A stretch of 64,000 nucleotides of DNA from an uncultured virus (IMG/VR IMGVR_UViG_3300042450_001700) (IMGVR_UViG_3300042450_001700), one strand, 5' to 3'. Numbered from the stretch's first letter, positions 29,106 through 48,008 are shown. The notes: a model not told the origin generated them from the sequence alone. Numbers and translations are program-made.

Positions 29106-29461
29106 ACCCACACACACTCGCCACCGGCAAAACCCCCGACCAAGCATTCAACAAAGCAACCCGCCAACCCGGAACCCACCTCACAAAAAAAGCGGGCTAC
29201 ACACACATCCCCCTCCCACCCAAAGTCATGGCACACAAAGTCCTAGCCGCCATCCAAGACACACAACACACAAACAACCCCAACGCAGACAACCGAGACA
29301 AACGAGCAGCCCAAAAAGCCGCCCAATGGCTCCAAACCCTCCCAACACCACCCCCACCCAACACCACCATCTGCCTACAACTAACAGGCCGACCCCTCAA
29401 CCAATACATCAACCAACACGGACCCCTCCCCAAAAACCACAACCTCTACATCTTCACCTAA
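29102..29461 (+). CDS. Diverged tandem paralog of the upstream gene, extremely C/A-skewed
   Basis: TGKTPDQAFNKA aligns with TGVNAEAAFDQA; ATGA-coupled. Confidence 0.55.
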   Translation: MNPHTLATGKTPDQAFNKATRQPGTHLTKKAGYTHIPLPPKVMAHKVLAAIQDTQHTNNPNADNRDKRAAQKAAQWLQTLPTPPPPNTTICLQLTGRPLNQYINQHGPLPKNHNLYIFT

Positions 29462-29632
29462 CCCCAAACCCAAACCCCCCCGAACAAACCCCACCCCCAA
29501 AACACAGGTCAGGAGTTTCAACCCACCACCTGTAGAAACATCGACTACAACAACATTTCGGATATACACAAACCGAACCACCCGGACTCAAAAAGAACCC
29601 ACAAAAAAAGATTGGGAGTTTCAAGTTGTCAA

Positions 29633-29822
29633 CTTTTCCAAAAAGTTATCCACAGGTTTTTCCACAGAGTTATCCACAGAACACCTGTTCGACGAACATT
29701 TGTTCGGAAAAGTTGTCCACAGGTTGTCCACAGGTTGTCCACAGCTTTATCCACAGAAAAGTTTTCCACAGGTTTTCCACAGGCAAAAGTTATCCACAGT
29801 TTGTCCACAGGTTTATCCCCAA
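29633..29822 (+). repeat. DnaA-box array with LexA-like boxes (left)
   Basis: TTATCCACA x4, TTGTCCACA x4 and TTTTCCACA x3, co-oriented at ~11-12 bp spacing; GAAC-N4-GTTC at 29679 and 29694. Confidence 0.85.
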
Positions 29823-29825
29823 CCT

Positions 29826-30602
29826 TGTTCGCTGTTCTCGGCTCGTGGTCGGCGCTCGTGGTCGGCTCTCGCTCTCTTGTTCTCGGCTCGTTCTCGGCTC
29901 TCGCTCTCGCTCTCATGTGGCTCTCATGTTGTGGCAATAGGTGAGACAGTAGGCGCGCGCTATCGGCTCTCTCTGTTCGCTCTCGTTCGTGTGGTCGGCG
30001 CGCTCTCGGCTCTCTCGTTCGTGCCGCTCGTGTTCGCTCTCGGCTCGTGGTCGGCTCTCTCTGTTCGTGGTTCGTTCGTGCCGCTCTCGCTCGTTCTCTT
30101 GGCTCGTGTTCGTGTGCGGCTCGTGGTCGGCTCTCTCTGTTCGTGGTTCGTTCGTGCCGCTCTCGCTCGTTCTCTTGGCTCGTGTTCGTGTGCCGCTCGT
30201 GGTCGGCTCTCGTGTTCGTGTGGCTCGTTCGCTCGTGTGGCTCGTGTGCCGCTCGTGTGGCTCTCTCTCGGCTCTCGTGTGCCGCTCTCGTGGCCCAGCA
30301 GCGCGTGCCGCTCTCGGCTCGTGGTTCGTGTGGCTCTCGTTCGTGTTCGTTCGCTCTCGTGGCTCTCGTGGCGCTCTCGTTCGTGGTCGGCGCTCATGGC
30401 TCTCTCGTGTGTTCTCTGTTCGCTCTCGGCTCTCGCTCTCGTGTGGCGCTCTCTCGCTCGTTCTCGTGGCTCGTGGTCGGCTCTCGTTGGCTCTCGCTCG
30501 TGGTGCCGCTCTCGTTCTCTCTCGTGGCTCGTGGCTCTCGCTCATGGCACTCACCCAGCAGCTCGTGCCGCTCGTGCCGCTCGTGCCGCTCGTTCTCGTT
30601 CT
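29826..30602. repeat. Adenine-free low-complexity tract 1
   Basis: Mosaic of GCTCTC/GCTCGTG/GTTC/GCC/GGTCG units. Confidence 0.9.
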
Positions 30603-30605
30603 CCC

Positions 30606-30646
30606 CAAAAACTAGAACGAGAGCCGACCGTTTTGGTCGGCTCTCG
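30606..30646 (-). terminator. Cassette terminator
   Basis: GAGAGCCGACC-AAAAC-GGTCGGCTCTC hairpin then GTTCTAGTTTTT; repeated at ~31641-31682, 32686-32728 and 33646-33684. Confidence 0.75.
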
Positions 30647-30657
30647 TTCTCGGCTCG

Positions 30658-30984
30658 TCAGTCCTTGAATATTGCTTTTAGCTCGGCAGTGATTGCCCGC
30701 TGAAGCGCTGGAATTTCGCGCACAAGAGCGTTGTACGTTTTCGGCTCAACCGCCAAAGTGTGAGTGCCAACACCTTGAGCGTTGAGAGTGCGAACCCACT
30801 TAGGCGTTCCGGCGTATCCTTCGTCAGTTGTGATGACTTTCGTGCCGTTCTCGTTGTAACCAACGAACACCCGGCGAGGATTTCCATGTACGTTGTTTGT
30901 TGTTGTGTAGTAGCCGATCGAACGGATGTTGAGCAGTAGCTCGTGTGCGGTCATTTGGTTGGCGAGTACTTCGTGGATTGCCAT
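30658..30984 (-). CDS. Cassette gene 1, hypothetical (108 aa)
   Basis: Normal-complexity ORF between the conserved leader and terminator. Confidence 0.75.
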   Translation of the reverse strand: MAIHEVLANQMTAHELLLNIRSIGYYTTTNNVHGNPRRVFVGYNENGTKVITTDEGYAGTPKWVRTLNAQGVGTHTLAVEPKTYNALVREIPALQRAITAELKAIFKD

Positions 30985-31172
30985 GATTTTTCTCTCATTC
31001 CCGAGCGGCTCGTGCCGCTCGTGTTGTTGGTGTGACTACATTCAACCAAAGATTGGAACAGAACGCAATAGCAAAACACCAGATTCTTTTTCTGACAGCG
31101 ATTTAGCCGCTAGAACTAGGGGGTTTTGCCCCAAAAGAAATATTTTGGAATCGCTCCAAAACGGTCGTTTTG
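30985..31172 (-). promoter_or_regulatory. Conserved ~185-bp cassette upstream block (4 copies)
   Basis: Homologous to 31961-32146, 33022-33208 and 33999-34180; includes TTGCGT, GTAGTCACACCAACAACACGAG and a hairpin before GAGAG. Confidence 0.75.
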
Positions 31173-31635
31173 GCGCTCTCGGCTCATGTTGCTCTCGGCT
31201 CTCGTGGTGCCGCTCATGTTGCTCTCGTGCCGCTCTCGCTCTCGGCTCTCGCTTGCCGCTCATGGCGCTCTCGTGTGGTCGGCGCTCGTGGCTCTCGGCT
31301 CGTGGTCGGCGCTCTCACCCAGCAGCGCTCTCGCGCGCTCTCGTGGCTCGTGGTCGGCGCTCGGCTCATGGTCGGCTCGTGCCGCTCTCACCCAGCGCTC
31401 GTGTGGCGCTCGTGTGGTGCCGCTCTCGGCTCGTTCTCTCTCGTGGTCGGCTCTCGTGCCGCTCGTGCCGCTCGTGGCGCTCTCGTGGCTCGTGGTGCCG
31501 CTCTCTCGGCTCTCGGCTCGTGTGCTTGCTCTCGCTCTCTCTCGTGCCGCTCTCGGCTCGTGTGGTGCCGCTCGTGGCTCATGCCGCTCTCGGCTCTCGC
31601 CCAGTCTTGTGTGGCGCTCGTGGCGCTCTCTCGTT
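31173..31635. repeat. Adenine-free low-complexity tract 2
   Basis: Same unit vocabulary as tract 1. Confidence 0.9.
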
Positions 31636-31693
31636 GGATCCAAAAACTAGAACGAGAGCCGACCGTTTTGGTCGGCTCTCGCTCTCGCTCGTT

Positions 31694-31960
31694 CTAGCCT
31701 AGTTGATCCTCTCGTTTTGGCAGTAGTTGGAGTTCTTCCCGATCTCCGGCGAGAGCGTCACAACATTCGCACAAGTTGCGGCTGAATGATCCCGAGAACC
31801 AATCCGAAGCCGGAACCAGATCAAAATCCTTGCTTAGTTCTTCGATCCCTTTTTGGCATGCAATCGAATCGGCTTCGCTCATTCCCGAGTCATCGCCATC
31901 AGCGATCATTTGGAGGCAGTTGAGGCAAACTCGGATGGTGATGATGTCTGACAGCTTCAT
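31694..31960 (-). CDS. Cassette gene 2, acidic Zn-binding-like (88 aa)
   Basis: VCLNC...FS...CECC...GDR motif. Confidence 0.75.
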   Translation of the reverse strand: MKLSDIITIRVCLNCLQMIADGDDSGMSEADSIACQKGIEELSKDFDLVPASDWFSGSFSRNLCECCDALAGDREELQLLPKREDQLG

Positions 31961-32146
31961 TTTTTTCTCTCATTCCCGAGCGGCTCGTGCCGCTCGTGTT
32001 GTTGGTGTGACTACATCAAAGCAAACATTTTGACTATACGCAATAGCAAAATGCGAGATTCTTTTTCTGACCGGGGTTTTGCCGCTAGTTCTAGGGGTTT
32101 TCACGCCAAAAGAAATATTTTGGAATACGTCCAAAACGGACGTTTT

Positions 32147-32685
32147 GCCGCTCTCGGCTCTCTTGTGCCGCTCGTGTTCTCGTGGTTCTCGCTCTCTCGT
32201 TCTCTCGGCTCGTGTGGCGCTCGTGTGGTCGGCTCATGGCGCTCTCGCTCGTGGTTCGTCCTAGTGCCGCTCTCGTGGCTCGTGGCGCTCGTGTGTGGCT
32301 CTCTCGTGGTTCTCGTGGCGCTCTCGTGTGGCGCTCGTTCTCATGCCGCTCTCGTGGCTCTCGTGTGGCTCGTGGTTCGTGCCGCTCGTGGTTCTCGGCT
32401 CTCACCCAGCAGCGCGCTCGTGTGGCTCGTGTGGTGCCGCTCGTGTTCGTTCGTGGTTCGTGGTCGGCGCTCGTGTTCTCTGTTCGCTCTCGTGGCTCGT
32501 GTGGCGCTCTCGTGGCGCTCATGGTGCCGCTCTCGTTCGTGGTCGGCTCATGTGGCTCTCTCGTGGCTCGTGGTTGCTCGTTCGTGGTTGCTCTCGGCTC
32601 ATGGCGCTCTCGTGTTCGTTCGTGCCGCTCTCGGCTCTCTCGTGGCTCTCACCCAGCGCTCGTGGTGCCGCTCTCGGCTCGTGCC
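32147..32685. repeat. Adenine-free low-complexity tract 3
   Basis: Same unit vocabulary. Confidence 0.9.
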
Positions 32686-32736
32686 AAAAACGGCAACAAG
32701 CGCCGACCGTTTTGGTCGGCGCTCGTTGCTCGTTTT

Positions 32737-33021
32737 CTAGAACGCTTGGAACAGAATCCCGTCGCAAAATTCGACTGCAAAAGTCATATCGTTGAGAGCG
32801 TCAAGCGAGTCGAAATTTTCGCCGTAGTTCTCGTTGATCTCTTCCAAGTCTGCCGCAAACATCCATTCTTGATCGAATGCGATTGGATCGAATTCAACCC
32901 CTTGGCCTTCTTCTTCTGCCGCTTCGATAAGCTCAAACAGTGCGTAGGATGCGTTGATCGGCCAGTTGCAAAGTGTGCGCATTGTTTGGGCAAACGTGCA
33001 GGCTGTCAGTAGTTCGTACAT
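32737..33021 (-). CDS. Cassette gene 3, very acidic protein (94 aa)
   Basis: SYALFELIE...EFDPIAFDQEW...LDALNDMT; D/E-rich. Confidence 0.75.
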   Translation of the reverse strand: MYELLTACTFAQTMRTLCNWPINASYALFELIEAAEEEGQGVEFDPIAFDQEWMFAADLEEINENYGENFDSLDALNDMTFAVEFCDGILFQAF

Positions 33022-33208
33022 TTTCTTTTCTCATTTCCCGAGCAGTTGGTGCCGCTCGTGTTGTTGGTGTGACTACATCAAAGCAAAGATTTGAAAGATA
33101 CGCAATAGCAAAACACGAGATTCTTTTTTCGACCGGGGTTTTCGCCCTAGAACTAGCGGGTTTTGCACCAAAAGAAATATTTTGGAATCGCTCCAAAACG
33201 GCAGTTTT

Positions 33209-33645
33209 CGCGCTCTCGCTCGTTCTCTCGTGTTGCTCGTTCTCGGCTCTCGGCTCATGGTTCTCTCGGCTCTCGTGTGGTGCCGCTCTCGCTCTCGGCT
33301 CTCGCTCTCGGCTCGTGTGCCGCTCTCGCCCAGCAGCGCGCTCGTGTGCCGCTCTCGTGTGGTTCGTGGTCGGCTCTCGGCTCTCGCTCATGGTTGCTCT
33401 CGTGTGCCGCTCGTGTTCGTGGCAGATACCCAGCGGCGCGTGCCGCTCTCGTGGCTCGTGTTTGCTCTCGGCTCATGCCGCTCTCGTGGTTGCTCTCTCG
33501 TGGCTCTCTCGGCTCGTGGTTGCTCTCTCGCTCGTGCCGCTCATGGTCGGCTCGTGGTGCCGCTCTCGGCTCTCGTGGTCGGCTCTCGTGCCGCTCTCGT
33601 TCTCGTGGCTCTCCCAGCCGCTCGTGGCGCTCGTGTGGCGCTCGC
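33209..33645. repeat. Adenine-free low-complexity tract 4
   Basis: Same unit vocabulary. Confidence 0.9.
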
Positions 33646-33698
33646 AAAAACGAGAATGAGCGCCGACCTTTTTGGTCGGCGCTCGTGGCTCGTGTGGT

Positions 33699-33998
33699 TC
33701 AGTCGTATTCAACCTCACCCCATTGATTTGTTCGTGAATGACAGAACTCTTCAACATAGTAAGAGTTGAGATCAACGTATTTTGGTGCCGCTTCAGCCGC
33801 TTCAGCCGCTTCAGCGATTTCCATGACTAGCGCCCTAGTCGAAACTGACGGAACCGATTTGCCGCCAGCGTTTTTGGCGATTTCAGTCCACTCAGAATCG
33901 GTCAAGTACTCGGGGTTTTTGCCGATAGTGGCGATTTCTGTCGCCATCTTCTTAGCAAGCTTTGCCCGATTTGCTAGGTGTGCCGGATGTGCTTTCAT
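33699..33998 (-). CDS. Cassette gene 4, HPxHL-family copy 3
   Basis: MKAHPAHLANR...W..IA..AG...PS..T. Confidence 0.75.
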   Translation of the reverse strand: MKAHPAHLANRAKLAKKMATEIATIGKNPEYLTDSEWTEIAKNAGGKSVPSVSTRALVMEIAEAAEAAEAAPKYVDLNSYYVEEFCHSRTNQWGEVEYD

Positions 33999-34180
33999 TC
34001 TGCTCTCTCTTCCCGAGCCGCTCGGCTCGTGTTGTTGGTGTGACTACATCAAAGCAAAGATTCCACACATAAGCAATAGCAAAATGCGAGATTCTTTTTG
34101 GAACAGCGGTTTTACCCCTAGAACTAGGGGGTTTTGCACCAAAAGAAATCTTTTGGAATCAGCCCAAAACGGTCGTTTTG

Positions 34181-34528
34181 GCTCTCGGCTCGCTCTCTCA
34201 TGGTCGGCTCTCGGCTCGTGTTCTCATGGCTCTCTCATGGCGCTCTCATGGTTCTCTCTCTCTTGTGCCGCTCTCGCTCTCTCATGCCGCTCTCGTGGTC
34301 GGCTCGTGGCTCGTGGCGCTCTCTCTTGCTCTCGGCTCTCGTGTGGCGCTCTCGTGGCTCGTGTGGTTGCTCTCTGTTCTCGTGGCGCTCTCTGTTCTCT
34401 CTCGGCTCGTGTTCTCTCTCTCATGGCGCGCTCGTTCTCGTGGTCGGCTCGTGGTCGGCTCGTGGTTGCTCTCGCTCTCTCGCTCTCGGCTCTCTCATGG
34501 TCGGCTCGTGTGGCGCTCTCGGCTCATG
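34181..34528. repeat. Adenine-free low-complexity tract 5
   Basis: Same unit vocabulary. Confidence 0.9.
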
Positions 34529-34614
34529 CAAAACATCTGCCGAACTCGTGACAGAAAACCGCCACTAGCGCGCGCGGTCGATTCCAAAACGACCAACACG
34601 AAAACGCCCGCGAG

Positions 34615-34846
34615 TTATCCCCAACCACACCAACCAGACGAGCCAAAAACAGCCAAAAGTTTTCCACAGGTTTTCCACAGGTTTTCCACAACTTTTTCCA
34701 CAGAACACCCGTTCCCCAAACGAATGTTCGATCAAAGTTATCCACAAGTTATCCACAGGTTTATCCACAGAACACCTGTTCGATCCGGTTATCCCCAGAG
34801 TTATCCACAGGTTTATCCACAGGTTTATCCACAGCCTGTGGATAAC
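34615..34846 (+). repeat. DnaA-box array with LexA-like boxes (right)
   Basis: TTATCCACA x6 plus one inverted copy (34837), TTTTCCACA x4; GAAC-N4-GTTC at 34703 and 34770. Confidence 0.85.
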
Positions 34847-35068
34847 CCAGCCCAGCCCAGCCCAGCCCCAAGCGGGCGGCGGCGGGCGGGCGGCAGCGGC
34901 GGCCCAGCCAGCGCGAGTTTTCCGGGCGGCGGGCGGCGGCGGCCAGCGCGAATTTCCGGGCGGGTGGGCGGCCCAGTCCGGCCCAGTCCGGCCCCGGATA
35001 AACGGCGGCCCAGCCAGCGCGAGTTTTCTAGGGGGCGGCGGGGCGGCGGGCCAGCGCGAATTTTCTAA
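34847..35068. repeat. GC-rich repeat block
   Basis: CCCAG tandem repeats, GGGC/GGC runs and four CCAGCGCGA(G/A)TTT units. Confidence 0.8.
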
Positions 35069-35074
35069 TTCGGA

Positions 35075-35461
35075 TTACCTATAAGGCGAAAGCGTCCCCG
35101 CAGCAGGAAACCCCCGTGATAACCACCCGCAAACCAAAAGCTCAATCGACGGGCGCACAACCAGAGCCGAAACCCCGGCAGCAGCCAGATCGTCTAGCCA
35201 TTCACGTTGTTCGACGGAAAGACGACCGACTTCCCGTTTGAGTTCAAGACATGCGAAACCGAAACGCGGGTGGACGAGCGCGAGGTCGGGGAACCCTTTA
35301 GCGTCTGCGTCACCGACGAAAACGCCTGCTGAGACTTGTCGTCGTGAATCGTGGAAGTGTGCGACACGCCATCCGTATAAACGGGCGAAAGTCATTATCC
35401 GGTTTTGTAGGTCTTTCTCGGTGATCTCTCGGAATGCTTTCTCTTCATTCGTAAGTCGCAT
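35075..35461 (-). CDS. VRR-NUC domain nuclease
   Basis: TEKDLQ, GFPDL, ELK...GRLS.EQ..WL motifs. Confidence 0.85.
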   Translation of the reverse strand: MRLTNEEKAFREITEKDLQNRIMTFARLYGWRVAHFHDSRRQVSAGVFVGDADAKGFPDLALVHPRFGFACLELKREVGRLSVEQREWLDDLAAAGVSALVVRPSIELLVCGWLSRGFPAAGTLSPYR

Positions 35462-35630
35462 TGTTATCCGTTCTGAACGCGTTGAAAGCCCCGAGGAGTG
35501 TTGCGAGTCCTCTGGTTTTGCAGATACCGCTTTTCACGATTCGTGGTCCACGCCAAACAACCCATACCCACTTTCGGTTGCTTCGCCGTTTCGTATCAAA
35601 CCAAATCCGATCAGTTGATGTATCTGTCAT
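35445..35630 (-). CDS. Hypothetical small protein
   Basis: Overlapping ORF within the operon. Confidence 0.45.
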   Translation of the reverse strand: MTDTSTDRIWFDTKRRSNRKWVWVVWRGPRIVKSGICKTRGLATLLGAFNAFRTDNNATYE

Positions 35631-35976
35631 TGCGTGAACCTAACTGTTCCCATTCTTCATCTCCTTCACGAACAACTAATACTTGACCAAACAGGTCACG
35701 AATCAGTTTTGGGTTGTCTTCGATGAACCCGTTTGACCAGTTACATGCAGGGATCAGGTTATTCGGGTTGATAAGGCTTCCACCTGCTGATCGTTTACGT
35801 CGTTCGTGTAAACCTTGGATTCCTGCGCATTGAGTTCGTATTGACTCGTCTTGTAACAGCGGGCAAATCAGGCAACCTATACCTGATTTGATTAGTGATT
35901 GGATAAGAGGAACCCTTGTTTCTTTCATCAGTGTTGAACGTTTTTCAGAACGTGGTCTGAGTTTGCGACCCTTCAT
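35611..35976 (-). CDS. HNH endonuclease-like protein
   Basis: CLIC, HERRKRSAGGS...NLIPACNWSN motif. Confidence 0.7.
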   Translation of the reverse strand: MKGRKLRPRSEKRSTLMKETRVPLIQSLIKSGIGCLICPLLQDESIRTQCAGIQGLHERRKRSAGGSLINPNNLIPACNWSNGFIEDNPKLIRDLFGQVLVVREGDEEWEQLGSRNDRYIN

Positions 35977-36070
35977 TGGCGACCGTTCATTGGCGACCGT
36001 CTAGGCTTGGCGACCGCCCATTGGCGACCGCCCAAGATTGGCGACCGATACCCCCTACTGGCGACCGATA
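35976..36070 (+). repeat. Six direct repeats of (T/C)TGGCGACCG
   Basis: Copies at 35976, 35990, 36007, 36021, 36038 and 36058. Confidence 0.85.
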
Positions 36071-36088
36071 CCGGTACAGCACATCTGC

Positions 36089-36316
36089 TCATTCGGCAGC
36101 GTCTTCCTCGTAGGCTAATAAGAGTATTTCTGATACCTGAACGGCAGTGAACGACACATTCATTACCCCACCAACTTTGCCCATCAGTTGCCCTTCGACC
36201 CCGTAAAGATTCGTTTGATTCAACGCAAGGATAACGCCATGCCCTTCGTTCTCTGCGTTTAGCAATGCCTCTTCAATCGTGTCAGGCGCTAACTTGAATT
36301 TGTTCTTCACGACCAA
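36089..36316 (-). CDS. Hypothetical protein
   Basis: AAGGAGG SD. Confidence 0.6.
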   Translation of the reverse strand: MVVKNKFKLAPDTIEEALLNAENEGHGVILALNQTNLYGVEGQLMGKVGGVMNVSFTAVQVSEILLLAYEEDAAE

Positions 36317-36368
36317 CCTCCTTGTTGTAGGAGATGCTACCTGTGGGGTTAGACCCGAATATGTCTAT

Positions 36369-36635
36369 ATGGGCAGTTATGGTTTACGGATGGATGAAGA
36401 ATCGTTTGACTACCCTGAAGACCCTTATCAGCTTGATGAGGTAGGTATAGGGACGGTTACGTCTTTAGAGGATGACGGGGTTGGAACCTACTTGTCTGTG
36501 TTGATTTCTGCGCATAACTCTTATGAGGGAGGTGCGTTCCACTTTGTTGTATCTCCTGAAGACGCGTTGAAGGTCGCCGCTTTGATTCTTGACTCTGTTG
36601 TGCTTATAAAGGCTTCTCTGACTGAGACTGAATAA
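36369..36635 (+). CDS. Acidic hypothetical protein (start 36369 or 36390)
   Basis: 3' part of tracked ORF 36279..36635. Confidence 0.55.
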   Translation: MGSYGLRMDEESFDYPEDPYQLDEVGIGTVTSLEDDGVGTYLSVLISAHNSYEGGAFHFVVSPEDALKVAALILDSVVLIKASLTETE

Positions 36636-36637
36636 GC

Positions 36638-36902
36638 GGCTTGGTCCAGTCCCGTCACGGCTGGGCGAAGCCGGTATCGGGTTTCAGTAAATGCGAAAGG
36701 ACCGGAAGTCTGTGCTTCAGTGCTTCGCTCCTGCGGAGCTTCTCTGTCGCTCACTTCTCCGGTCCTTTGTAGCTTGAGCTTCTCTATCCTCGTTCCTACG
36801 GAACTTCAGTGCTTCGCTCAGTTGCTTTGTAGCTAGTGGCTAGGCCGTCCGTTCCCGGTTTCATTCCCGGACTTGACCGCTTTGCGCAGGTACTCGCTAC
36901 CC
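36638..36902 (-). ncRNA. Structured ncRNA candidate F (~265 nt)
   Basis: Class I promoter TTGCGC-N17-TACGGT at 36908-36936; closing stem GGTC-A-AGTCC/GGACT-G-GACC; duplicated internal motifs. Confidence 0.65.
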
Positions 36903-37033
36903 CCATTACCGTATCAGGGTTTACTACAGTGCGCAAGTCAATAACGAAACAATCTCAGATTTCTTTTTGACCACCATCGGGCCACCACCACCAGTTTCCT
37001 GTTTGCGTCCATAGAGAATGTTATTGTTGAAGT

Positions 37034-37420
37034 ATGGAATCAGAAACAGTACAACCAATGAAGCAACGCAAGTCAGGCCGTCCCCTCAAAACAGACGAAC
37101 CACTCAAGACCTACTCGTTCAGTCTGAGCGAAAACCAGATCGCACTTCTTGACGGTTGGGCTAAAGCGAAGGGCGAGTCGCGATCCGCAGTGTTGCGTTC
37201 ACTCGTTATGCGTTTGGAAGCAGCGCCGGTGGTTGAGCCTAAGCCGCTTCAACTGAACCCGGTTGAAGTGCAGCCTGTAGCAGATGCGCCTCGCCCGCCG
37301 AGCGACATCGCTGTTGAAGCAGCAGTAGCGGCTGTTGAGTACGATGCGGCAGTTGAGCCTCCGGTTGAACTGACTGTTGCTCAACGCATCGCAGCAGCTC
37401 TTGCATCTCTTGATGCGTAG
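37034..37420 (+). CDS. Ribbon-helix-helix (CopG-like) DNA-binding protein
   Basis: GRP...YSFSLS....LLD.WA...GESRSAVLR pattern; leaderless. Confidence 0.75.
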   Translation: MESETVQPMKQRKSGRPLKTDEPLKTYSFSLSENQIALLDGWAKAKGESRSAVLRSLVMRLEAAPVVEPKPLQLNPVEVQPVADAPRPPSDIAVEAAVAAVEYDAAVEPPVELTVAQRIAAALASLDA

Positions 37421-37611
37421 TGGAACCTGAACCTCCTGTAGAGGTTGACCCTCCGGTTGATAACCCGATGCTTGACGTTTATAAAGCGGCTACCGAGTTG
37501 TTGCGGCGGAACCGTCCTGTGAAACAGAACCGTGAGCAGCGGCGTGCAGCGTTACGGGCGAAGAAGTCTAAAGGTCGTTGACCGCTGGGTCTGAGTTGTG
37601 GGGTCACCGTA

Positions 37612-37688
37612 AAATGGAAGAAGCCCGGTGCGTAAGGGGGAGCTTCTTGATGCTCAACCCCCGACAACCGGGCTTGCGTTCCTATGTG
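37612..37688 (-). ncRNA. Small hairpin RNA candidate G (~77 nt)
   Basis: Class I promoter TTGATA-N17-TACAGT; AAGCCCGGT/ACCGGGCTT closing stem followed by a U-rich tail. Confidence 0.5.
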
Positions 37689-37752
37689 TCTTTGACTGTA
37701 GTTGATGGTTCTACAGTTATCAAGTCTATTTGCAAATAGTTTTCGGATTTCT

Positions 37753-38529
37753 TTACAACCCCAAAACCGTGTACTCAACCACACACTGACAATTCACTGA
37801 CTCAGCAGCAGGCAAAGCAATATCCCCCGGATACTCAGCAAAGAACCCACCAACAACAAACAACTCACCCGGACCCACCACCTGCCCATTAGCAGCAGCA
37901 TGAGACTCCCTACTATCCACCAACTGGCAAATCCAAACCTTCGACCCCTCAACACCAACAGCGATCAACTCATCAGGAATATCAACATCGTCCAACTCCG
38001 CCAACAAATCAAAAGCAGAACCAGCCGCAGCGTTCAACCCGCTGTTCGTTTCAGTAACAGTCATAACCCGTGCCACCCCCTGAGACAACGGTCCAGACAC
38101 ACCACCATCAAACAACCCCAGCCGGTCTAACAGCCAACCCGGAGCCTGACCAGATGCCTCCGTTGAAGCAACCGCAACCCGCCCATCAACAGTTGCGCCA
38201 ACCTTGTAAATCACAACCATCCGTGCAGCCAACATCTCCTCAGCCGCACTCTCCACAACATTAGAACGCAACAACCACACCAACCCCAAAGCAATCGCAG
38301 CATCACGAGCAATCTCCCGATACATCCGATCCAAAACAGGCTTCACTTCAGAATCAACAGCCTCAACCCACCAGCCCTGATCCCACAAGTCCTCATACAT
38401 CCCATCAGACTTCGTGACTCTCGCCCTCAACTTCGCTCTCACATCATCAAACGCAAAGCCAATAGCACGCCCAACCCTATAATTCCACAACGCACGGTCA
38501 GCATCAGATAACAGATACGACCCGGCCAT
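37753..38529 (-). CDS. MuF-like minor head protein
   Basis: TETN, KVW...SRESH...NGQ...F.VGG...YPGD...ESVNCQC motifs. Confidence 0.8.
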   Translation of the reverse strand: MAGSYLLSDADRALWNYRVGRAIGFAFDDVRAKLRARVTKSDGMYEDLWDQGWWVEAVDSEVKPVLDRMYREIARDAAIALGLVWLLRSNVVESAAEEMLAARMVVIYKVGATVDGRVAVASTEASGQAPGWLLDRLGLFDGGVSGPLSQGVARVMTVTETNSGLNAAAGSAFDLLAELDDVDIPDELIAVGVEGSKVWICQLVDSRESHAAANGQVVGPGELFVVGGFFAEYPGDIALPAAESVNCQCVVEYTVLGL

Positions 38530-39056
38530 CAGATAGATTCGATCTGTCTAAGGCGTGCATCTGCCCAAGTCTTACCCGGATCGCCACCCCACAACGCCCA
38601 AGCGATACGCCCAGCCGATGGGTAACCTTCTTCTCCACGACGGAACCCTTCAGCATCCTTATCAACCTCATGCCGAGCGAAGAACGATGCCATCCTGCGA
38701 ACAGTGTCAGGTGACAACCGAACCCTATTGGAAATATCGCGCGCTCGTGCAACACCAACCGCAGTGCCACCCCGCTTGAACTCAGCCCGCCAAGCCAAAC
38801 CCCTCTCAGCTTCAGCAACCATCGCGTCCGTAGGATTCAAGTCCAGATCAGCAAGCGAAACATAAGCAGCGAGCGCCGATAGCGCAGCGCCAGACAAACG
38901 GCCCTGAAGGTTTTCATTAGCGTGCAACGCAGCCACCTGAGCTAACGCATCACGCTTCGACCCATGACACGACAACAACCGACCTGTCTCTAAACGAACA
39001 CCCCACGGGGTAGATACCGGGCAACCCTGATCGTTACCAACAATATCCCAAGGCAT
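38529..39056 (-). CDS. Conserved phage head-associated hypothetical protein
   Basis: AERGLAWR..GGT.VG..RA...RMASFFARH...GYPSAGRIAWALWGGD motif common in phage head loci. Confidence 0.7.
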   Translation of the reverse strand: MPWDIVGNDQGCPVSTPWGVRLETGRLLSCHGSKRDALAQVAALHANENLQGRLSGAALSALAAYVSLADLDLNPTDAMVAEAERGLAWRAEFKRGGTAVGVARARDISNRVRLSPDTVRRMASFFARHEVDKDAEGFRRGEEGYPSAGRIAWALWGGDPGKTWADARLRQIESI

Positions 39057-39289
39057 CAGAAACTAAACATCCACTTCGCAACAGTCCACACCAACCACAC
39101 CGCAGGCATCAACATGGCTATAACAAACAACCATGTTGCGAAGACAGTGAAAAATGAGACAGCCATCTTCGCCCCAGCGGGGGTTTCCCTTTTCAGGGGG
39201 GAAGGCGTGGCAGCAGGAAAGCTTTCACCGGTCATCTCGTCAAATATCCTTGACTGTTGTTCATAGTCCCACTCTCGCCCATTACTCAT
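39056..39289 (-). CDS. Small membrane protein
   Basis: C-terminal hydrophobic segment. Confidence 0.6.
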   Translation of the reverse strand: MSNGREWDYEQQSRIFDEMTGESFPAATPSPLKRETPAGAKMAVSFFTVFATWLFVIAMLMPAVWLVWTVAKWMFSF

Positions 39290-39320
39290 AGTCGTACCCT
39301 TGTCTGCTGTTCAGAGTCCA

Positions 39321-40595
39321 TCAGTACGGCACCTCTTCATCCCAATGGTCTTTCGGTTGTTGCCATCCCGAGTCTAGTTCCCAAACACCTTTCCAAGGCC
39401 ACGGTGTGGAACGCTCAATCACATCAGGCCAATCATTCTCCAGACGGTCGCCACGCCAACGCCCAACCTGCATGATCTCATTGCCATCTTCTTTCGATTC
39501 CAGCTTCAACCCGATCTCAGGCCACCGCAACCACAGGCTCGAACCATACGGCATCAAGTCACGAGTACCGCCTGACCCTTTCGGTGCGTGATGCTCAAGG
39601 ATCAGCCCGAACCCGTAACGGACACGCAGATCGTCAAACACAGACATCACCTCAGAAGAAGCCTGCTCATCGGATTCTCGTGCTTCCACCCGGTACGCCT
39701 TGTAGATCGGCCCCAAGCAAACGAGTGTGGGGCGCACATGGGCGATCACAGCTTCCAGTTCAGACCTGTCACGCCTTGACCGCAGATTCACACCACCGGG
39801 CCGGTGCCATAGCCATGCTCTATCAGGATCGTATTCTTCAGCAACCGAACCAACTTGTGTTCTGATCGGATTACAAACGTCGATAATCGAATCATCAGGA
39901 TTCTCAAGATCAACAATCAGCGTCCTACAAGGCGGTATCGGCGTGAACCGCAAAGGATGAATCCCCTGCGCAGCAGCAATACCCAACTGCCGCAGCAGAA
40001 CCGTCTTACCGATCCCCTCCTGAGCAACAACCATCACCCGCCACCCGACACGCATCAAACCCGGAATCACCCAAGCAGGACGCTCCGAAACAGGCCGATC
40101 CAAGAACCCGTCAATCGTCCACACATCCCCCGGCACCTCAACCACATCCGACTTATGAATATCCAGCACCGCAGCATTCAACATGTCACCAAGCTCAGAT
40201 GGATCACCGTCCTGCCCGTAAGACCGTTCCCCTATTTCCTTGCAAGCGCTAATCAGCTTCCTGTACGCAGCGCACTTCACAACCCTTGTCGCATACGCAG
40301 ACACGTTTGACACGAACCCAGCGTTCGCCACCAATGACATAATCCCCGCAGCACCCCCATAAGCGCCTTCCCCCTCAGACAGCGTGAGCGCCCCCGTAAG
40401 CGTCGTAGCGTCCACAGGCTCCCCACGCCCATACATCCCCGCAATCGTCGCATACAGCACCCTCAGACGAGGCGTGTAGAGGTCTTCAGCGGAACACAGC
40501 GGCAATACCTCACCGATAGCCTCGTTATTCAAGATCATCGCACCAACAAGCGCTTCCTCAGCCTGCTCGTCATACGGCGGCGATTGTTCCTTCAT
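39321..40595 (-). CDS. Replicative helicase (DnaB N-terminal domain plus RecA-like/AAA_25 ATPase)
   Basis: PPYDEQAEEALVGAM N-domain; Walker A EGIGKT; LILEHH..K and YGSS motifs. Confidence 0.85.
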   Translation of the reverse strand: MKEQSPPYDEQAEEALVGAMILNNEAIGEVLPLCSAEDLYTPRLRVLYATIAGMYGRGEPVDATTLTGALTLSEGEGAYGGAAGIMSLVANAGFVSNVSAYATRVVKCAAYRKLISACKEIGERSYGQDGDPSELGDMLNAAVLDIHKSDVVEVPGDVWTIDGFLDRPVSERPAWVIPGLMRVGWRVMVVAQEGIGKTVLLRQLGIAAAQGIHPLRFTPIPPCRTLIVDLENPDDSIIDVCNPIRTQVGSVAEEYDPDRAWLWHRPGGVNLRSRRDRSELEAVIAHVRPTLVCLGPIYKAYRVEARESDEQASSEVMSVFDDLRVRYGFGLILEHHAPKGSGGTRDLMPYGSSLWLRWPEIGLKLESKEDGNEIMQVGRWRGDRLENDWPDVIERSTPWPWKGVWELDSGWQQPKDHWDEEVPY

Positions 40596-41029
40596 GCTTC
40601 CAACTCCTTCAACCCGGACAACTTGCCCTGAACCAGCGCTTCATACGAACCCTTGAACCGTGATTGCCAACCAAACATCCCCGCAGACAAACCAGCACAC
40701 GACTCAATGACCAGATCATGCACGACAGGACGGACGGGAACATGCCCCGAACCATTCACAAACCGCATCTGCTCCCGATAAGCCAACCAGCGCTCGGCAC
40801 CAGCCAACGCCGCAGCTTCATCCGGCGCTCCAGTAGCAGCACGACACACAGCAGCCACAGACGGACGGAACTCCTCAGTCCTCAACATTGCCTGAACACC
40901 CATATTGGTTGGCCCAAACGGAAGACCCCTCAAACACTCCACATAGATCAACGCCATCTCAGGAGGGAACTTCTGCGACCACCCAAACTCCAACAACCGG
41001 ACAACCTGCCCTGCCTCACCAAGGTTCAT
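40592..41029 (-). CDS. Putative helicase loader/inhibitor (G39P-like)
   Basis: Position between initiator and helicase; FRPSVA motif. Confidence 0.5.
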   Translation of the reverse strand: MNLGEAGQVVRLLEFGWSQKFPPEMALIYVECLRGLPFGPTNMGVQAMLRTEEFRPSVAAVCRAATGAPDEAAALAGAERWLAYREQMRFVNGSGHVPVRPVVHDLVIESCAGLSAGMFGWQSRFKGSYEALVQGKLSGLKELEA

Positions 41030-41973
41030 CCCTGCTCCTGAGCGTACAAAGCCATCACCTGATCCGTAGCCGACATCTTCCCGCGTTCCCCTCCAGCCTC
41101 AAAGATGTCCCTAAACCGCTCAACCCGCTCACCATCCCTGATCGCAACAAGCAGATCATCAAACTTCTTCCCATCAGGGTTATCCCCTGTATGCCACGCA
41201 GACAACGCAATCCCCCGTGCAGCAGCCACCAAGTCCTCCTCGGTGTAACCCTCGCGCAAACGGGCAGCAACAGCAGACCTCCGTTTCGCGTTCAACTTCA
41301 CTTTCCCCGGTGCGCGCCCAGTCGCCAGCACCCACGCTTCCATCACCCGCTCCGCCGTCCCCGCGTTTTTCGTTATCTGCCCTGCGTCAACGAGTTGAAG
41401 TTCAGAACGAGGCGGTAAAGAAACGGATTCCGTTTCCGCGTTTTCTGTTTCGTTGACATAAGTCTTTATAGTCTTTTTATAGTCTTGACTCTTAGTACTG
41501 ATAATAGGGCCTGAAAAACCGGAACCCGTTTCTCCGGCTCCGGTTATCCGGCGACGGGTTTCCAGTCCCCGGTCAATATGACTATCAGATAAGTCGTCGT
41601 CTGTTTCGACCAGTGGCCGCTCCCGAACCACAGCTTCATTCACCCAACGCCCATCCGGGCCACGATACTTTTCACGCGTGATATAGCCAGCTTCTTCAAG
41701 CTCCGCTAACGCAGCACGAACAGCATCACGACCCTCCTTGCATCGTTTACTGATCTCTATTGAGTTGATCCGCCAACCATCAGGCTTGTCCAAAAGCCAC
41801 ACGAGCAGCCCAGTGGCACGCAACGACAAGGCTTCATCGTTGATAGTCCGTGAGTCAATGACTGTGAACTGTTTGCGGTGTTCAACTCTGATCGTCACTT
41901 CAGTCCTTCCCTGCCGGACCCGAAGTGTGCAACCTTGACCAAGTGCTGTATGCTTGGACTCAGGAACTGACAC
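41026..41973 (-). CDS. Replication initiator-like protein with N-terminal HTH (start may be GTG 41898)
   Basis: FTVI...LSLRATGLLVWLL..PDGW...EGRDAVR.AL.ELE.AGY; C-terminal ARLREGYT..DL domain. Confidence 0.75.
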   Translation of the reverse strand: MSVPESKHTALGQGCTLRVRQGRTEVTIRVEHRKQFTVIDSRTINDEALSLRATGLLVWLLDKPDGWRINSIEISKRCKEGRDAVRAALAELEEAGYITREKYRGPDGRWVNEAVVRERPLVETDDDLSDSHIDRGLETRRRITGAGETGSGFSGPIISTKSQDYKKTIKTYVNETENAETESVSLPPRSELQLVDAGQITKNAGTAERVMEAWVLATGRAPGKVKLNAKRRSAVAARLREGYTEEDLVAAARGIALSAWHTGDNPDGKKFDDLLVAIRDGERVERFRDIFEAGGERGKMSATDQVMALYAQEQG

Positions 41974-42103
41974 GCCAAATGGGTATGGCGGAGGTGTCTT
42001 AGAAGAGTCGGGCGAGTACTAATCGTCCGGCTTCTTCGCGTATTGGGCTACCGACCCCATGAGTGTTTTGGACCCGGTAGCGGCAAGTGTACCAGATGGG
42101 TGT

Positions 42104-42466
42104 TCAGATTTCTTTCTCCACATAAACCACTCTGCCGTCAATGATGACGATGCCTTCTGGCAATATCGCATGATCCAGTATCGCCCCACGCAGATCAGCT
42201 CCGAATAGGCTTGCTCCGAATAGGTGTGCGTTCGTGAGGTTCGCTCTGCGTAGGTCGGCTCTGCGTAGGTCGGCGTTATGCAGGTTTGCGCAGATGAGGT
42301 CGGCTCCGATGAGGTTCGATCCGAATAGGTCGGCGTTTGTCAGGTTCGCTCCGAACAGAACGGCTCCCATTAGGTTTGTGTCGGATAGGTCTGCCCCGTA
42401 GAGGTTCACTCCGGTTAGGTCGGCTCGTTCCATGTTGCGGACTTCGTGTCCGATGATTGTGGTCAT
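42104..42466 (-). CDS. Pentapeptide repeat protein
   Basis: A(D/N)Lxx repeats throughout. Confidence 0.9.
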   Translation of the reverse strand: MTTIIGHEVRNMERADLTGVNLYGADLSDTNLMGAVLFGANLTNADLFGSNLIGADLICANLHNADLRRADLRRANLTNAHLFGASLFGADLRGAILDHAILPEGIVIIDGRVVYVEKEI

Positions 42467-42555
42467 CCTTCGACCCATATTCTCCAGCAGAGCATTCCTA
42501 CGCTTGCGATGTTTCCTACGATTGCGATTGCTATGTGAATCTCGGTCTGTGTCAT
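42463..42555 (-). CDS. Small single-TM peptide (30 aa, leaderless)
   Basis: TTGATT-N16-TATACT-N6-ATG; MTQTEIHIAIAIVGNIASVGMLCWRIWVEG. Confidence 0.6.
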   Translation of the reverse strand: MTQTEIHIAIAIVGNIASVGMLCWRIWVEG

Positions 42556-42656
42556 ACCCCTAGTATAGTCATATGAACTACAGAATCAAGTCAATATCAA
42601 ACAAATATCAAGATTTCTTTCAGCACCAAACACCACACAACGGCTACCCTAAACAT

Positions 42657-44228: not shown

Positions 44229-44263
44229 AAATGCAAGAAGCCCCTCCGTTGTGGAGGGGCTGA
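44227..44263 (-). terminator. Intrinsic terminator between terL and ncRNA C
   Basis: AGCCCCTCC-N5-GGAGGGGCT hairpin followed by TCTTGCATTTT on the minus strand. Confidence 0.75.
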
Positions 44264-45007
44264 AGCCATCTTGCTGACTAACCGAGAAGGCAATACGTCC
44301 TTCTGTCGGCATCGGTTGATACCGCCAAATTTTTGCACCATTGGGGGTGCCTGCAACCGCCCTTGCAGGTGGGTTCCTATCTTCTGTCACCCGAGGTCTA
44401 CAACCCTTGGAACACCGGAAGATTCGTTCAGCGGCGGGACTTTGTTTCAGGCGATATTCCCTGTGCTGCTTTTTGCCTGTACTGCTTGTTGATCGCAGAA
44501 CCGTTGAGTTAGCAGGAAGAGCGGCGGGAGAGATGCACCAACAACGCGCCCATCTTCGCTTCACATCAGAAGCTCGTTACCTAGCCGGGAGGGGAGAGAT
44601 GCACCAACAACGCTCCACCGGGTAGGGAATGGCTAACTGGCGGGAAGTATATCTTCCCGCTAACTCAACGGTCCTACGAATCAAGTTCTTAGAAGATGCT
44701 CTTGGACCGGCTACTTGCTTTCGTTCTTACTACTCCACGGATTGTGCGCACGCACCGCTTCACCTCAGAACTAGTTGCTTTCACCGTTCTCCGCATTCAC
44801 TCGCGCTATGTCAACATCCATCCACCACCTTCATAAGCACATCTCTGTGTGCCGTAGGGCGCTTCACTTGGCGATCAGCCCGGTACTTCTGCGGTTCCAA
44901 GTTCATCATCTAAGAACTTGATTCCTGTACTTGAGAGTCTTTGGTGTGCGGACCCTAGCCGCCATGCTCCCCGGTCGTTCCGGTTCTTTAGGTTGTATTG
45001 CCTTACC
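44229..45007 (-). ncRNA. Large structured ncRNA candidate C (~780 nt)
   Basis: Promoter TTGACA-N17-TATCTT at 45014-45042; 5'/3' stem 44995-45004/44287-44296; perfect 16-bp stem 44678-44693/44909-44924; stem 44498-44520/44652-44674. Confidence 0.75.
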
Positions 45008-45077
45008 CCCATAAAGATAGTCGATGCGACTACACATGTCAAGTCAATAATCAAGATTGTTTGATATTTCTTTTCGG

Positions 45078-45981: not shown

Positions 45982-46047
45982 CACAAGACAGTAGTCGATA
46001 CGACTACAGTCCGCAAGTCGAAACAGAAGATTGTTTGATATTTCTTT

Positions 46048-46599: not shown

Positions 46600-46746
46600 G
46601 TAGATAAAGATACTACAGGTGTCTGACATTATGCGAATCCAAATGGTGTGACTCTTGTCACACGCCAAATCGGAGCCGCCAGCACACCCAGCCGACACGC
46701 GACAAAGGGACCGGAGCTACCCGGTCCCCTCATCACCAACAACAAC

Positions 46747-47736: not shown

Positions 47737-48008
47737 TGTGATTGCCTCCGTGTTAGTTGTTGCTGTTGGTTGTTGTACGACTCACTATATAGATCGGTGT
47801 GGACGCTAAATGACTTTCCACTAAACTTTTCTTTGGATTCGTTTACAAACCTAAACCCTCAACCACTACTTCACCCCCGCACCACCAACCCCGACGCTGG
47901 GCAAACCCTCAACCTCAACCACAGGTTTACAGTTAGACACTCGGAACCGGAACGCCGCCCAGTACGTCGAAGGTTTGCGTCCACACTGCTCTATAGACTG
48001 TTGAACAT

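What the first reader, a model, noticed from the sequence alone, without database searches (positions are those of the whole stretch)
29633..34846. Twin arrays of DnaA boxes interleaved with LexA-like SOS boxes
Seen: about 11 boxes per array (TTATCCACA, TTGTCCACA, TTTTCCACA), nearly all co-oriented at about one helical turn, with GAAC-N4-GTTC sites embedded (29679, 29694, 34703, 34770). Known: TT(A/G)TCCACA is the DnaA box, CGAAC-N4-GTTCG is the Gram-positive/actinobacterial LexA box, and datA-type loci titrate DnaA. The phage has its own initiator and helicase. Inference: decoy sites that soak up DnaA (blocking host initiation) and LexA (derepressing SOS), or a DnaA-assisted origin.
Basis: partly seen in the sequence, partly recalled or inferred. 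Interest (0 to 1): 0.8.

Follow-up and report, generated by a model that had tools for sequence, protein, structure and literature searches.

The report
Twin DnaA/LexA docking arrays in phage
A lake-water phage carries two matching arrays of DnaA-box and LexA-box sequences that bracket four small genes, a layout parallel to phage T5's unexplained injection-stop region, and the arrays likely dock these two host proteins on the incoming phage DNA rather than serve as a replication origin.

Summary
Each array has 11 TT(A/G/T)TCCACA boxes (21 of 22 co-oriented, 11-12 bp apart), and 4 of the genome's 6 GAAC-N4-GTTC sites lie inside them. In close kin the box cores (0/84) and LexA arms (0/24) are unchanged while tolerated positions change (15/114). 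Phage T5's twin injection-stop repeats also pair DnaA boxes with a LexA box, there of the E. coli type. Tandem DnaA boxes recur in 62 viral clusters, often near terminase genes, and lie 48 bp from the record end of two cultured Arthrobacter phages. An origin is unlikely (no DnaA-trios, GC clamp, own initiator). Best reading (0.40): cis-acting host-protein platforms bounding an early block during entry. A DnaA sink is a strong rival (0.27): one genome holds as many perfect boxes as candidate host genomes. Terminal position and binding are unproven. The scan noted similar DnaA+LexA arrays in at least six other phages.

The parts
29634..29821 (+). Left array: 11 TTDTCCACA DnaA boxes plus 2 one-mismatch boxes, all co-oriented
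29679..29706 (.). Pair of LexA-type boxes 15 bp apart (29679-29690; 29693-29706 is a perfect CGAAC-N4-GTTCG)
29830..30600 (+). Adenine-free spacer 1 (18 A in 771 nt; C/G/T word salad)
30614..30650 (-). Intrinsic-terminator-like hairpin of cassette 1
30658..30984 (-). Cassette ORF1, 108 aa, no family; 96% aa / 89% nt identical in kin L125
30987..31185 (-). Conserved 199-nt upstream module, copy 1 (contains the phage-wide TGTAG-N9-CTACA-like motif)
31170..31630 (+). Adenine-free spacer 2
31649..31685 (-). Terminator-like hairpin of cassette 2
31694..31960 (-). Cassette ORF2, 88 aa, acidic, 6 Cys, resembles unnamed phage protein clusters; 52% aa identical in L125
31962..32160 (-). Upstream module, copy 2 (86% identical to copy 1)
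32150..32685 (+). Adenine-free spacer 3
32693..32729 (-). Terminator-like hairpin of cassette 3
32737..33021 (-). Cassette ORF3, 94 aa, very acidic (20 D/E, 1 K/R), weak phrog_9974 match; fold matches only uncharacterised phage proteins
33024..33222 (-). Upstream module, copy 3 (81%)
33205..33645 (+). Adenine-free spacer 4
33658..33684 (-). Terminator-like hairpin of cassette 4
33699..33998 (-). Cassette ORF4, 99 aa, no family; 93% aa / 86% nt identical in L125
33995..34193 (-). Upstream module, copy 4 (75%)
34180..34528 (+). Adenine-free spacer 5
34615..34845 (+). Right array: 10 co-oriented and 1 inverted TTDTCCACA plus 2 TTATCCCCA; colinear diverged direct repeat of the left array
34703..34781 (.). 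LexA-type boxes 34703-34714, 34718-34729 (imperfect) and 34770-34781
34847..35050 (.). GC-rich repeat clamp after the right array; among the most duplex-stable DNA in the genome
41026..41973 (-). Context: the phage's own replication initiator; the least stable 50-mer of the genome starts at 41457 (candidate own origin, inferred)

Best explanation
The two arrays are duplicated, selected clusters of DnaA-box and LexA-box sequences that bracket a block of four small genes, and they likely act in cis as loading platforms on which host DnaA would assemble head-to-tail with LexA filling the gaps, forming two protein-coated boundaries that would anchor, protect or pace this probably early-expressed block while the phage DNA enters and establishes itself. 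Shown: the sequences, their duplication, the conservation pattern, the cassette anatomy, the parallel layout in T5, and the end-proximal position of DnaA arrays in other phages. Inferred: binding by DnaA and LexA, early expression, an Acidimicrobiia host, the block's place near a physical genome end, and the effect on entry. Titration of host DnaA would follow as a side effect once genomes multiply.
For: (1) The left and right arrays align colinearly over about 230 bp with the LexA pair at the same place, so the layout, not only the box number, is kept. (2) Right array against three kin records of one lineage: box core 0/84 and LexA arms 0/24 changed, against 15/114 at tolerated box positions, spacers and the central N4 (L122; Fisher p 4e-5). 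(3) In T5 the two inverted repeats at 6022-6152 and 9332-9462 each carry DnaA boxes and the same E. coli-type LexA box (6137, 9332) and enclose 3.2 kb of small pre-early ORFs with promoters and terminators. The LexA box type here matches the predicted host: the SSB's named relatives are Acidimicrobiales/Acidimicrobiaceae, and 22 of 46 GTDB loci with a DnaA-box/LexA-box pair are Actinomycetota by title. (4) Tandem DnaA boxes occur in 62 clusters among 120 viral loci. In 17 lineages they lie nearer terL than uniform placement would give (mean quantile 0.32, p about 0.004; 5 of 17 within 1 kb; 12 of 17 upstream). In cultured Arthrobacter phages Seahorse and Tiff81 three boxes end 48 bp from the record end, and in Seahorse terS starts at base 64. 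(5) An unrelated virus (G051) has the same 15-bp LexA pair next to 4 DnaA boxes. (6) Neither array overlaps a cassette promoter module: the right array is 567 bp from the nearest shared motif, and the left lies between convergent units. (7) Contig depth is 1.2-1.5 times higher from 34.9 kb rightwards than left of the block in 4 of 4 runs.
Against: No binding or expression data exist; no RNA run covers the region. A terminal position is not shown: here the arrays are 7.8 and 12.8 kb from terL (quantiles 0.20 and 0.32) and about 17 kb from terS. The depth plateau (34.9-50.7 kb) fits packaging leftwards from terS (51.6-52.1 kb), replication from the initiator gene at 41.5 kb, or strain mixing at least as well, and the short contigs inside the block give intermediate depths (X1 21-30). 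With headful packaging from terS the block would not enter first. No T5 A1, A2 or dmp homologue was found (best tblastn E 0.51). The arrays are direct repeats, whereas T5's are inverted. In relatives at about 70-85% nucleotide identity neither flanking gene is followed by the block (all fragments), and G001 has only a 4-box run upstream of its initiator gene where G011 has an unrelated 11-bp repeat, so the element is labile. The terL test uses a uniform null and does not control for arrays sitting in large intergenic gaps. The T5 DnaA model is itself an untested in-silico proposal (bioRxiv 10.1101/866236).
Confidence: 0.4

Rival explanations
1. DnaA sink (datA or DnaA-box-cluster type decoy): the arrays titrate host DnaA in trans and so delay or block chromosome initiation, with weaker LexA titration after the phage DNA has replicated.
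For: The arrays hold 15 perfect TTRTCCACA (22 with TTTTCCACA) against 21, 14, 15, 24 and 19 in five Acidimicrobiia-type MAGs of 1.5-2.6 Mb, none of which has a tandem pair. Strict LexA sites number 3 against 3-10 per MAG. The arrays are larger than any of the 62 other viral clusters (3-10 boxes), box number varies 13-15 among kin, and they lie away from promoters. An ectopic DnaA-box cluster partly suppresses early initiation in B. subtilis (PMC3245932, abstract). The phage has its own initiator and helicase.
Against: It does not need two colinear copies bracketing a gene block, nor a fixed LexA pair. Most other phage arrays have only 3-4 boxes (40 of 62), too few for a sink, and tend to lie near terminase genes. 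The MAGs are not proven hosts, were chosen for holding one box pair, and may be incomplete. Weaker host sites and DnaA abundance are unknown.
Confidence: 0.27
2. Polar transcription roadblocks: DnaA bound to co-oriented boxes stops leftward transcription, the right array shielding the cassettes from read-through of the VRR-NUC unit and the left array catching read-through from the cassettes; LexA cleavage would loosen the block.
For: Both arrays have the same polarity relative to minus-strand transcription and lie downstream of minus-strand units (right array 230 bp after the VRR-NUC stop). Orientation-dependent termination by DnaA boxes is reported (Schaefer and Messer 1989; title only, seen in the reference list of PMC13438810; the text is not held; the active orientation is recalled, not checked). 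DnaA and LexA act jointly at E. coli uvrB and recN (PMC6015884, abstract).
Against: Each cassette already ends in a terminator-like hairpin. Eleven boxes exceed what a roadblock needs. The active orientation could not be verified.
Confidence: 0.12
3. DnaA-assisted (possibly bipartite) phage replication origin.
For: 11-bp co-oriented box runs resemble oriC arrays (PMC4285127, passages). An AT-rich 50-mer at 29600 is in the least stable 0.4% of the genome. Relative G001 has 4 boxes upstream of its initiator gene.
Against: No DnaA-trio-like run lies within 40 nt 3' of any box, whereas 7 of 120 other viral loci have one, clearly in L012 and L112. The right array is followed by a GC clamp, and the least stable 50-mer of the genome is inside the phage's own initiator gene. 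G011 and this phage lack boxes at the initiator gene.
Confidence: 0.07
4. Slippage-expanded repeats with little present function: a short DnaA/LexA-containing promoter fragment amplified in a repeat-prone spacer region.
For: Box number varies among kin. At one locus G001 has a perfect 12-bp DnaA-box tandem and G011 an unrelated 11-bp tandem. The spacers between the arrays are low-complexity. The block is not found beside its flanking genes in more distant relatives.
Against: Substitutions avoid box cores and LexA arms (0/108 against 15/114), and two of them restore the consensus. The two arrays have diverged to roughly 70% yet keep the LexA pair in place.
Confidence: 0.08

Closest known systems
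Phage T5 first-step-transfer repeats / injection stop signal (IRC-spacer-IRD and IRD'-spacer-IRC'; bioRxiv 10.1101/866236)
   Same: Two homologous non-coding modules, each with DnaA boxes 12 bp apart and a host-type LexA box, enclosing a variable block of small ORFs with their own promoters and terminators.
   Different: Here the modules are direct, not inverted, repeats; 11 boxes each rather than up to 4; a GAAC-N4-GTTC LexA box rather than CTG-N10-CAG; adenine-free spacers (none in the T5 stretch); no A1, A2 or dmp; no proven long terminal repeat or two-step entry.
Chromosomal DnaA-box clusters outside oriC (B. subtilis DBCs, PMC3245932; E. coli datA, recalled)
   Same: Dense clusters of high-affinity boxes with no unwinding element, able in principle to bind much of the cell's DnaA.
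   Different: Phage-borne, duplicated, strictly co-oriented, interleaved with LexA boxes; no IHF site was tested; no effect on initiation shown.
DnaA/LexA co-regulated SOS promoters (E. coli uvrB, recN: PMC6015884; single pairs at recA, lexA and dnaE-type genes seen)
   Same: A DnaA box directly adjacent to a LexA box of the host's type.
   Different: Hosts have one pair at a promoter. The DnaA-LexA-DnaA sandwich was found in 0 GTDB genomes and 0 JGI metagenome records, and here it is not at a promoter.
End-proximal tandem DnaA boxes of other phages (Arthrobacter phages Seahorse and Tiff81; a T7-like left end in L011; Streptomyces phage Faust)
   Same: Co-oriented TTATCCACA runs at 11-12 bp in non-coding DNA near a genome end or among small early-type genes.
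   Different: 2-6 boxes, a single array and no LexA box beside them (L011); unannotated in the records fetched.
Bacterial oriC / basal unwinding system
   Same: 11-bp-period co-oriented DnaA boxes.
   Different: No DnaA-trios, no adjacent unwinding element on the downstream side, and a GC clamp instead.

Membership tests
T5-type injection stop signal | Twin non-coding modules with paired DnaA boxes enclosing small ORFs | tested here: met
   against T5
T5-type injection stop signal | Modules arranged as inverted repeats | tested here: not met
   direct repeats, 21 of 22 boxes on one strand
T5-type injection stop signal | A1, A2 and dmp genes | tested here: not met
   tblastn of the three T5 proteins against G000: one hit at E 0.51; remote analogues not excluded
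T5-type injection stop signal | Location in a long terminal repeat at the first-entering end | tested here: inconclusive
   depth step in contigs of 4 runs is ambiguous; no raw reads
T5-type injection stop signal | Two-step DNA transfer | not testable with these tools
   uncultured phage
oriC / DnaA-dependent origin | Cluster of DnaA boxes | tested here: met
oriC / DnaA-dependent origin | DnaA-trios 3' of the boxes (pattern recalled) | tested here: not met
   0 in this genome; 7 of 120 other viral loci
oriC / DnaA-dependent origin | Adjacent AT-rich unwinding element | tested here: inconclusive
   weak AT-rich 50-mer upstream of the left array (29600); GC clamp after the right array
datA / DnaA-box-cluster titration locus | Many high-affinity boxes relative to the host complement | tested here: met
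   15 against 14-24 per candidate-host MAG; host not proven
datA / DnaA-box-cluster titration locus | Lowers initiation frequency in vivo | not testable with these tools
   needs ori/ter measurement
datA / DnaA-box-cluster titration locus | IHF-binding site (datA proper; recalled) | not tested
   no search made; actinobacteria use a different protein (recalled)
LexA-repressed promoter (SOS operator) | Palindrome matching the host group's SOS box | tested here: met
   same GAACA-N2-TGTTCG upstream of lexA and recA
LexA-repressed promoter (SOS operator) | Overlap with a promoter | tested here: not met
   no sigma-70-like site at the arrays; 567 bp to the nearest cassette motif; other promoter types not covered

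The most novel reading that the evidence does not exclude
Unrelated phages have converged on a host-matched DnaA+LexA nucleoprotein switch (E. coli-type LexA box in T5, actinobacterial-type box here) that gates DNA entry or the first-expressed gene block by the host's replication and damage state. This phage carries the most expanded form seen here, two 11-box arrays that could loop out a block insulated by adenine-free spacers, and tandem DnaA boxes near genome ends are a general, unrecognised phage cis-element.
Probability: 0.2. Interest if true: 0.85.

Novelty: new variant of a known kind. Interest (0 to 1): 0.6.

Why it matters
Why T5 DNA stops entering at its injection stop signal is still poorly understood (PMC13250531, passage). 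Finding the same two host sites paired in twin modules of an unrelated phage, with the LexA box switched to the predicted host's type, points to DnaA and LexA as the bound proteins. It gives a direct test in T5 itself, whose LexA boxes are not mentioned in the main text of the preprint read or found by search. Cultured Arthrobacter and Streptomyces phages offer laboratory models for end-proximal DnaA arrays. If the sink reading holds, it would be a DNA-encoded host-takeover tool that needs no gene expression. The scan has noted similar arrays in several other phages, so this locus is a strong example of a recurring element, not a unique one.

Tried and rejected
Origin inside the arrays: rejected for lack of trios and of a downstream unwinding element. 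Iterons in the initiator gene: only a 2 x 11-bp repeat and two short inverted repeats, inconclusive. Assembly artefact: rejected; independent IMG/VR assemblies and Logan contigs of 4 of 4 runs cover the pieces with 0-2 differences. Excision of the block by recombination between arrays: a joint 29667-34816 appears in 2 of 4 runs with only 23 letters on the short side, which other organisms' DnaA repeats can give; not counted. Packaging type from TerL relatives: only 20-29% identity to mixed types, uninformative. Cassette proteins as known anti-defence factors: no Pfam family, no solved-structure match; ORF3 has only a non-significant ArdA-like hit (E 1.0, TM 0.47), so 'DNA mimic' is not claimed. 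Cassette module in JGI metagenomes: 1 of 27 matches was a relative (L175). Distant relatives: 15 records searched for boxes (G005 twice), only G001 had a run (4 boxes); 14 of the 15 rows are under 90% complete, so absence is not shown. No tRNA genes in the window. No integrase or repressor among 74 + 43 proteins scanned (not every small ORF was scanned). Literature: ten searches gave no paper on phage DnaA+LexA arrays or phage DNA decoys for DnaA; the library lacks most subscription journals, and the bioRxiv supplements of the T5 preprint were not seen.


Full report
Context. The window is bases 1-64000 of an 81,270-bp single contig whose ends overlap by 127 nt, i.e. a complete circular assembly. 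It encodes a major head protein, portal, terminase subunits, tail proteins, an initiator (41026-41973), a DnaB-like helicase, SSB and methyltransferases (74 ORFs scanned) and a tape-measure-like tail protein (43 ORFs). No integrase or repressor was among them. 23 of the 24 sequencing runs listed as holding the region are lake-water metagenomes. The named bacterial relatives among the SSB's best 120 hits are Acidimicrobiales or Acidimicrobiaceae, and the helicase's cultured relatives are mostly actinophages. The host is therefore probably a freshwater Acidimicrobiia; this is inferred.

Observation. Each has 11 TT(A/G/T)TCCACA; 21 of 22 are on the + strand, and 22 of the genome's 23 TTNTCCACA fall in 434 bp. 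Runs have 11-12 bp spacing, with best phase at 11 bp. Four of six GAAC-N4-GTTC, and three of three GAACA-N2-TGTTC, in the genome lie in the arrays. Shuffling the letters between the boxes 20,000 times never gave two such sites. An assembly artefact is excluded: two IMG/VR records of the same phage and contigs of four runs cover the pieces.

The arrays align colinearly as a diverged direct repeat of about 230 bp, with the 15-bp LexA pair at the same place. Between them lie four cassettes on the minus strand, each a conserved 199-nt upstream module (75-86% identical), an 88-108 aa ORF and a terminator-like hairpin. Five spacers with about 2% adenine on the + strand separate them. ORFs 1, 3 and 4 are 89-96% identical in protein and 86-89% in DNA to their copies in kin record L125; ORF2 is 52% identical. 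None has a Pfam family. ORF3 is very acidic and folds (pLDDT 78) like uncharacterised phage proteins only. The modules carry a TGTAG-N9-CTACA-like motif found 13 times in the genome, once at 29531 just left of the left array; only one sigma-70-like promoter passed my genome-wide scan, and it is not at the arrays. That the cassettes are early genes is an inference from this anatomy.

Selection on the sites. Three records of one kin lineage (L122, L125, L134; about 84% nucleotide identity) cover the right array, with 13, 14 and 15 boxes counted by the broader pattern. Against L122, 0 of 84 box-core positions and 0 of 24 LexA-arm positions differ, whereas 4 of 24 tolerated box positions, 8 of 78 spacer positions and 3 of 12 central LexA positions do (0/108 against 15/114, p 4e-5). 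The alignment is anchored on the boxes and this is one lineage. No kin record covers the left array.

Motif identity. In GTDB, a TTATCCACA within 12 bp of GAACA-N2-TGTTCG occurs at 46 loci; by record title 22 are Actinomycetota, 8 Chloroflexota and 5 Bacillota. Of 87 flanking ORFs I scanned 63, which include recA (2), lexA (2), a dnaE-type polymerase, DUF222 (2) and divIC. So the pair is a real host promoter feature, as reported for E. coli uvrB (PMC6015884, abstract and outline). The sandwich DnaA-LexA-DnaA gave 0 hits in GTDB and 0 in JGI metagenomes, and 3 in IMG/VR, all close kin.

Origin test. No DnaA-trio-like run (pattern recalled) lies 3' of any box in this genome, whereas 7 of 120 other viral loci have one, clearly so in L012 and L112. 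The right array is followed by some of the most stable DNA in the genome. The least stable 50-mer is at 41457 inside the initiator gene, where lambda-type origins lie (recalled). An AT-rich 50-mer at 29600 ranks in the lowest 0.4% and is the only point for the origin reading. Per PMC4285127 (passages), the unwinding element lies beside the box cluster at a critical distance, and TTGTCCACA is the high-affinity box of Mycobacterium and Streptomyces.

T5 comparison. The T5 preprint (bioRxiv 10.1101/866236; parts 1-4 of 6 read) describes two inverted repeats with paired DnaA boxes enclosing a variable pre-early region. It proposes, in silico only, that membrane-bound DnaA halts injection. Earlier scan notes suggested T5 also has LexA sites, so I checked: both repeats carry the same perfect E. 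coli-type box, at 6137 and 9332, beside DnaA boxes, and they enclose seven small ORFs with promoters and terminators. The preprint's main text does not contain the word LexA; its supplements were not seen. The present phage lacks A1, A2 and dmp homologues and has direct, not inverted, modules. It works like the T5 layout but is not a member of that family.

Other phages. Three tandem boxes occur in about 370 IMG/VR stretches (estimated from 22 of 64 parts); the 120 loci held fall into 62 clusters with 3-10 boxes (the 11-12 bp spacing there is partly forced by my pattern). I searched the 36 records of 20 kb or more for terL. It was found in 28, 8 were dropped, and 12 related gut records were counted as one, leaving 17 lineages. 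Arrays were nearer terL than uniform placement would give (p about 0.004; 5 within 1 kb; 12 upstream), but 5 lay more than 15 kb away and the null ignores intergenic bias. Among GenBank phages the arrays matched 24 and 84 records. In Arthrobacter phages Seahorse and Tiff81, three boxes end 48 bp from the right end of the record, and Seahorse terS starts at base 64; Streptomyces phage Faust has three boxes in a 1.5-kb gap among small ORFs; none has a LexA box beside them. G051, an unrelated virus, has three CGAAC-N4-GTTCG, two of them 15 bp apart, directly before four DnaA boxes.

Position in this genome. Contig depth in run X1 is 21.7 over 14.4-30.1 kb, 21-30 on short pieces inside the block, 31.1 over 34.9-50.7 kb, and 21.0 and 20.4 over 58.6-81.3 kb. 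X6, X7 and X9 show the same direction (about 8.5 to 10.6, 7 to 9.1, 5.4 to 7.1), though some distant short contigs in those runs are as deep. The block thus lies at one edge of an over-represented sector. That fits a terminal repeat beginning at the block, but equally headful packaging leftwards from terS, replication from 41.5 kb, or strain mixing; 50.7-58.6 kb was not measured. Gene order is shuffled among relatives. In G001 and G011 the gene left of the block is followed by other genes, and in L135-L144 and L290 the VRR-NUC gene is not followed by the block. All are fragments, and G002 breaks off 150 bp before the left array. G001 has four boxes upstream of its initiator gene where G011 has a different 11-bp repeat.

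Stoichiometry. Five actinobacterial MAGs, four labelled Acidimicrobiia-type and one a close homologue at the locus (chosen for holding one box pair; completeness unknown), have 14-24 TTRTCCACA, no tandem pairs, and 3-10 strict LexA sites. The arrays hold 15 and 3. One incoming genome would roughly double the perfect DnaA boxes in such a cell, which keeps the sink reading strong. An ectopic cluster does dampen initiation in B. subtilis (PMC3245932, abstract).

Verdict. The arrays are real and selected, and likely bind host DnaA and LexA. I favour cis-acting platforms that bound an early block during entry and establishment (0.40) over a DnaA sink (0.27), polar roadblocks (0.12), near-neutral repeats (0.08) and an origin (0.07); the first two are compatible. 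This is a new variant of a known kind. The scan has noted DnaA+LexA arrays in at least six other phage genomes (unchecked notes), none a look-alike of this stretch. Ten literature searches found no paper on the combination in phages. Interest 0.6.

Noticed in passing
window 29229-29463: Short + strand ORF in an extremely C/A-rich stretch, opposite to the G/T-rich coding strand elsewhere; conserved in G002, and two assemblies (G002, L133) break off next to it.
   Followed up: partly
window 29830-34528: Five spacers with about 2% adenine on one strand, built from words such as CTCTC, CTCGT and GGCTC; conserved in character in kin L125 and L175; function unexplained.
   Followed up: partly
13 sites, e.g. 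window 5174, 21310, 29531, 31022, 37697, 42564, 46599: Phage-wide palindromic TGTAG-N9-CTACA motif in intergenic DNA, a likely operator or promoter core.
   Followed up: partly
G001:C1:2659-2703 and L288:9725-9830: At the same place upstream of the initiator gene, one relative has four 12-bp DnaA-box repeats and another has about six 11-bp CCGCC-containing repeats, each after a conserved, possibly structured non-coding stretch.
   Followed up: partly
L012:8002-8200 and L112: Large viral records (95 and 159 kb) with an oriC-like arrangement: DnaA boxes followed by DnaA-trios.
   Followed up: no
L014, L058, L060 and hits H41-H45: Microvirus genomes carry tandem DnaA boxes in their intergenic region, possibly for DnaA-dependent priming (idea recalled, untested).
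   Followed up: no
AY587007 6137 and 9332 (L299): Phage T5's two injection-stop repeats each contain a perfect E. coli-type LexA box that is not annotated in the record.
   Followed up: yes
MH910041 56390-56433; PV105567 50439-50482: Cultured Arthrobacter phages Seahorse and Tiff81 have unannotated tandem DnaA boxes 48 bp from the record end, next to a G-run/C-run motif also seen beside many other arrays.
   Followed up: partly
L219, L226, L234, L235 and related loci: Freshwater Acidimicrobiia-type genomes share a DnaA box + LexA box pair downstream of enolase; in L226 the next gene is divIC/ftsB, a possible replication and damage checkpoint on cell division.
   Followed up: no
window-wide against G001, G002, G011: Gene order is heavily shuffled among relatives at about 80-90% identity, with many breakpoints near repeated intergenic elements.
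   Followed up: no
window 34904-50700: Sequencing depth plateau about 1.2-1.5 times the rest in four runs; cause unresolved (pac at terS, origin, terminal repeat or strain mix).
   Followed up: partly
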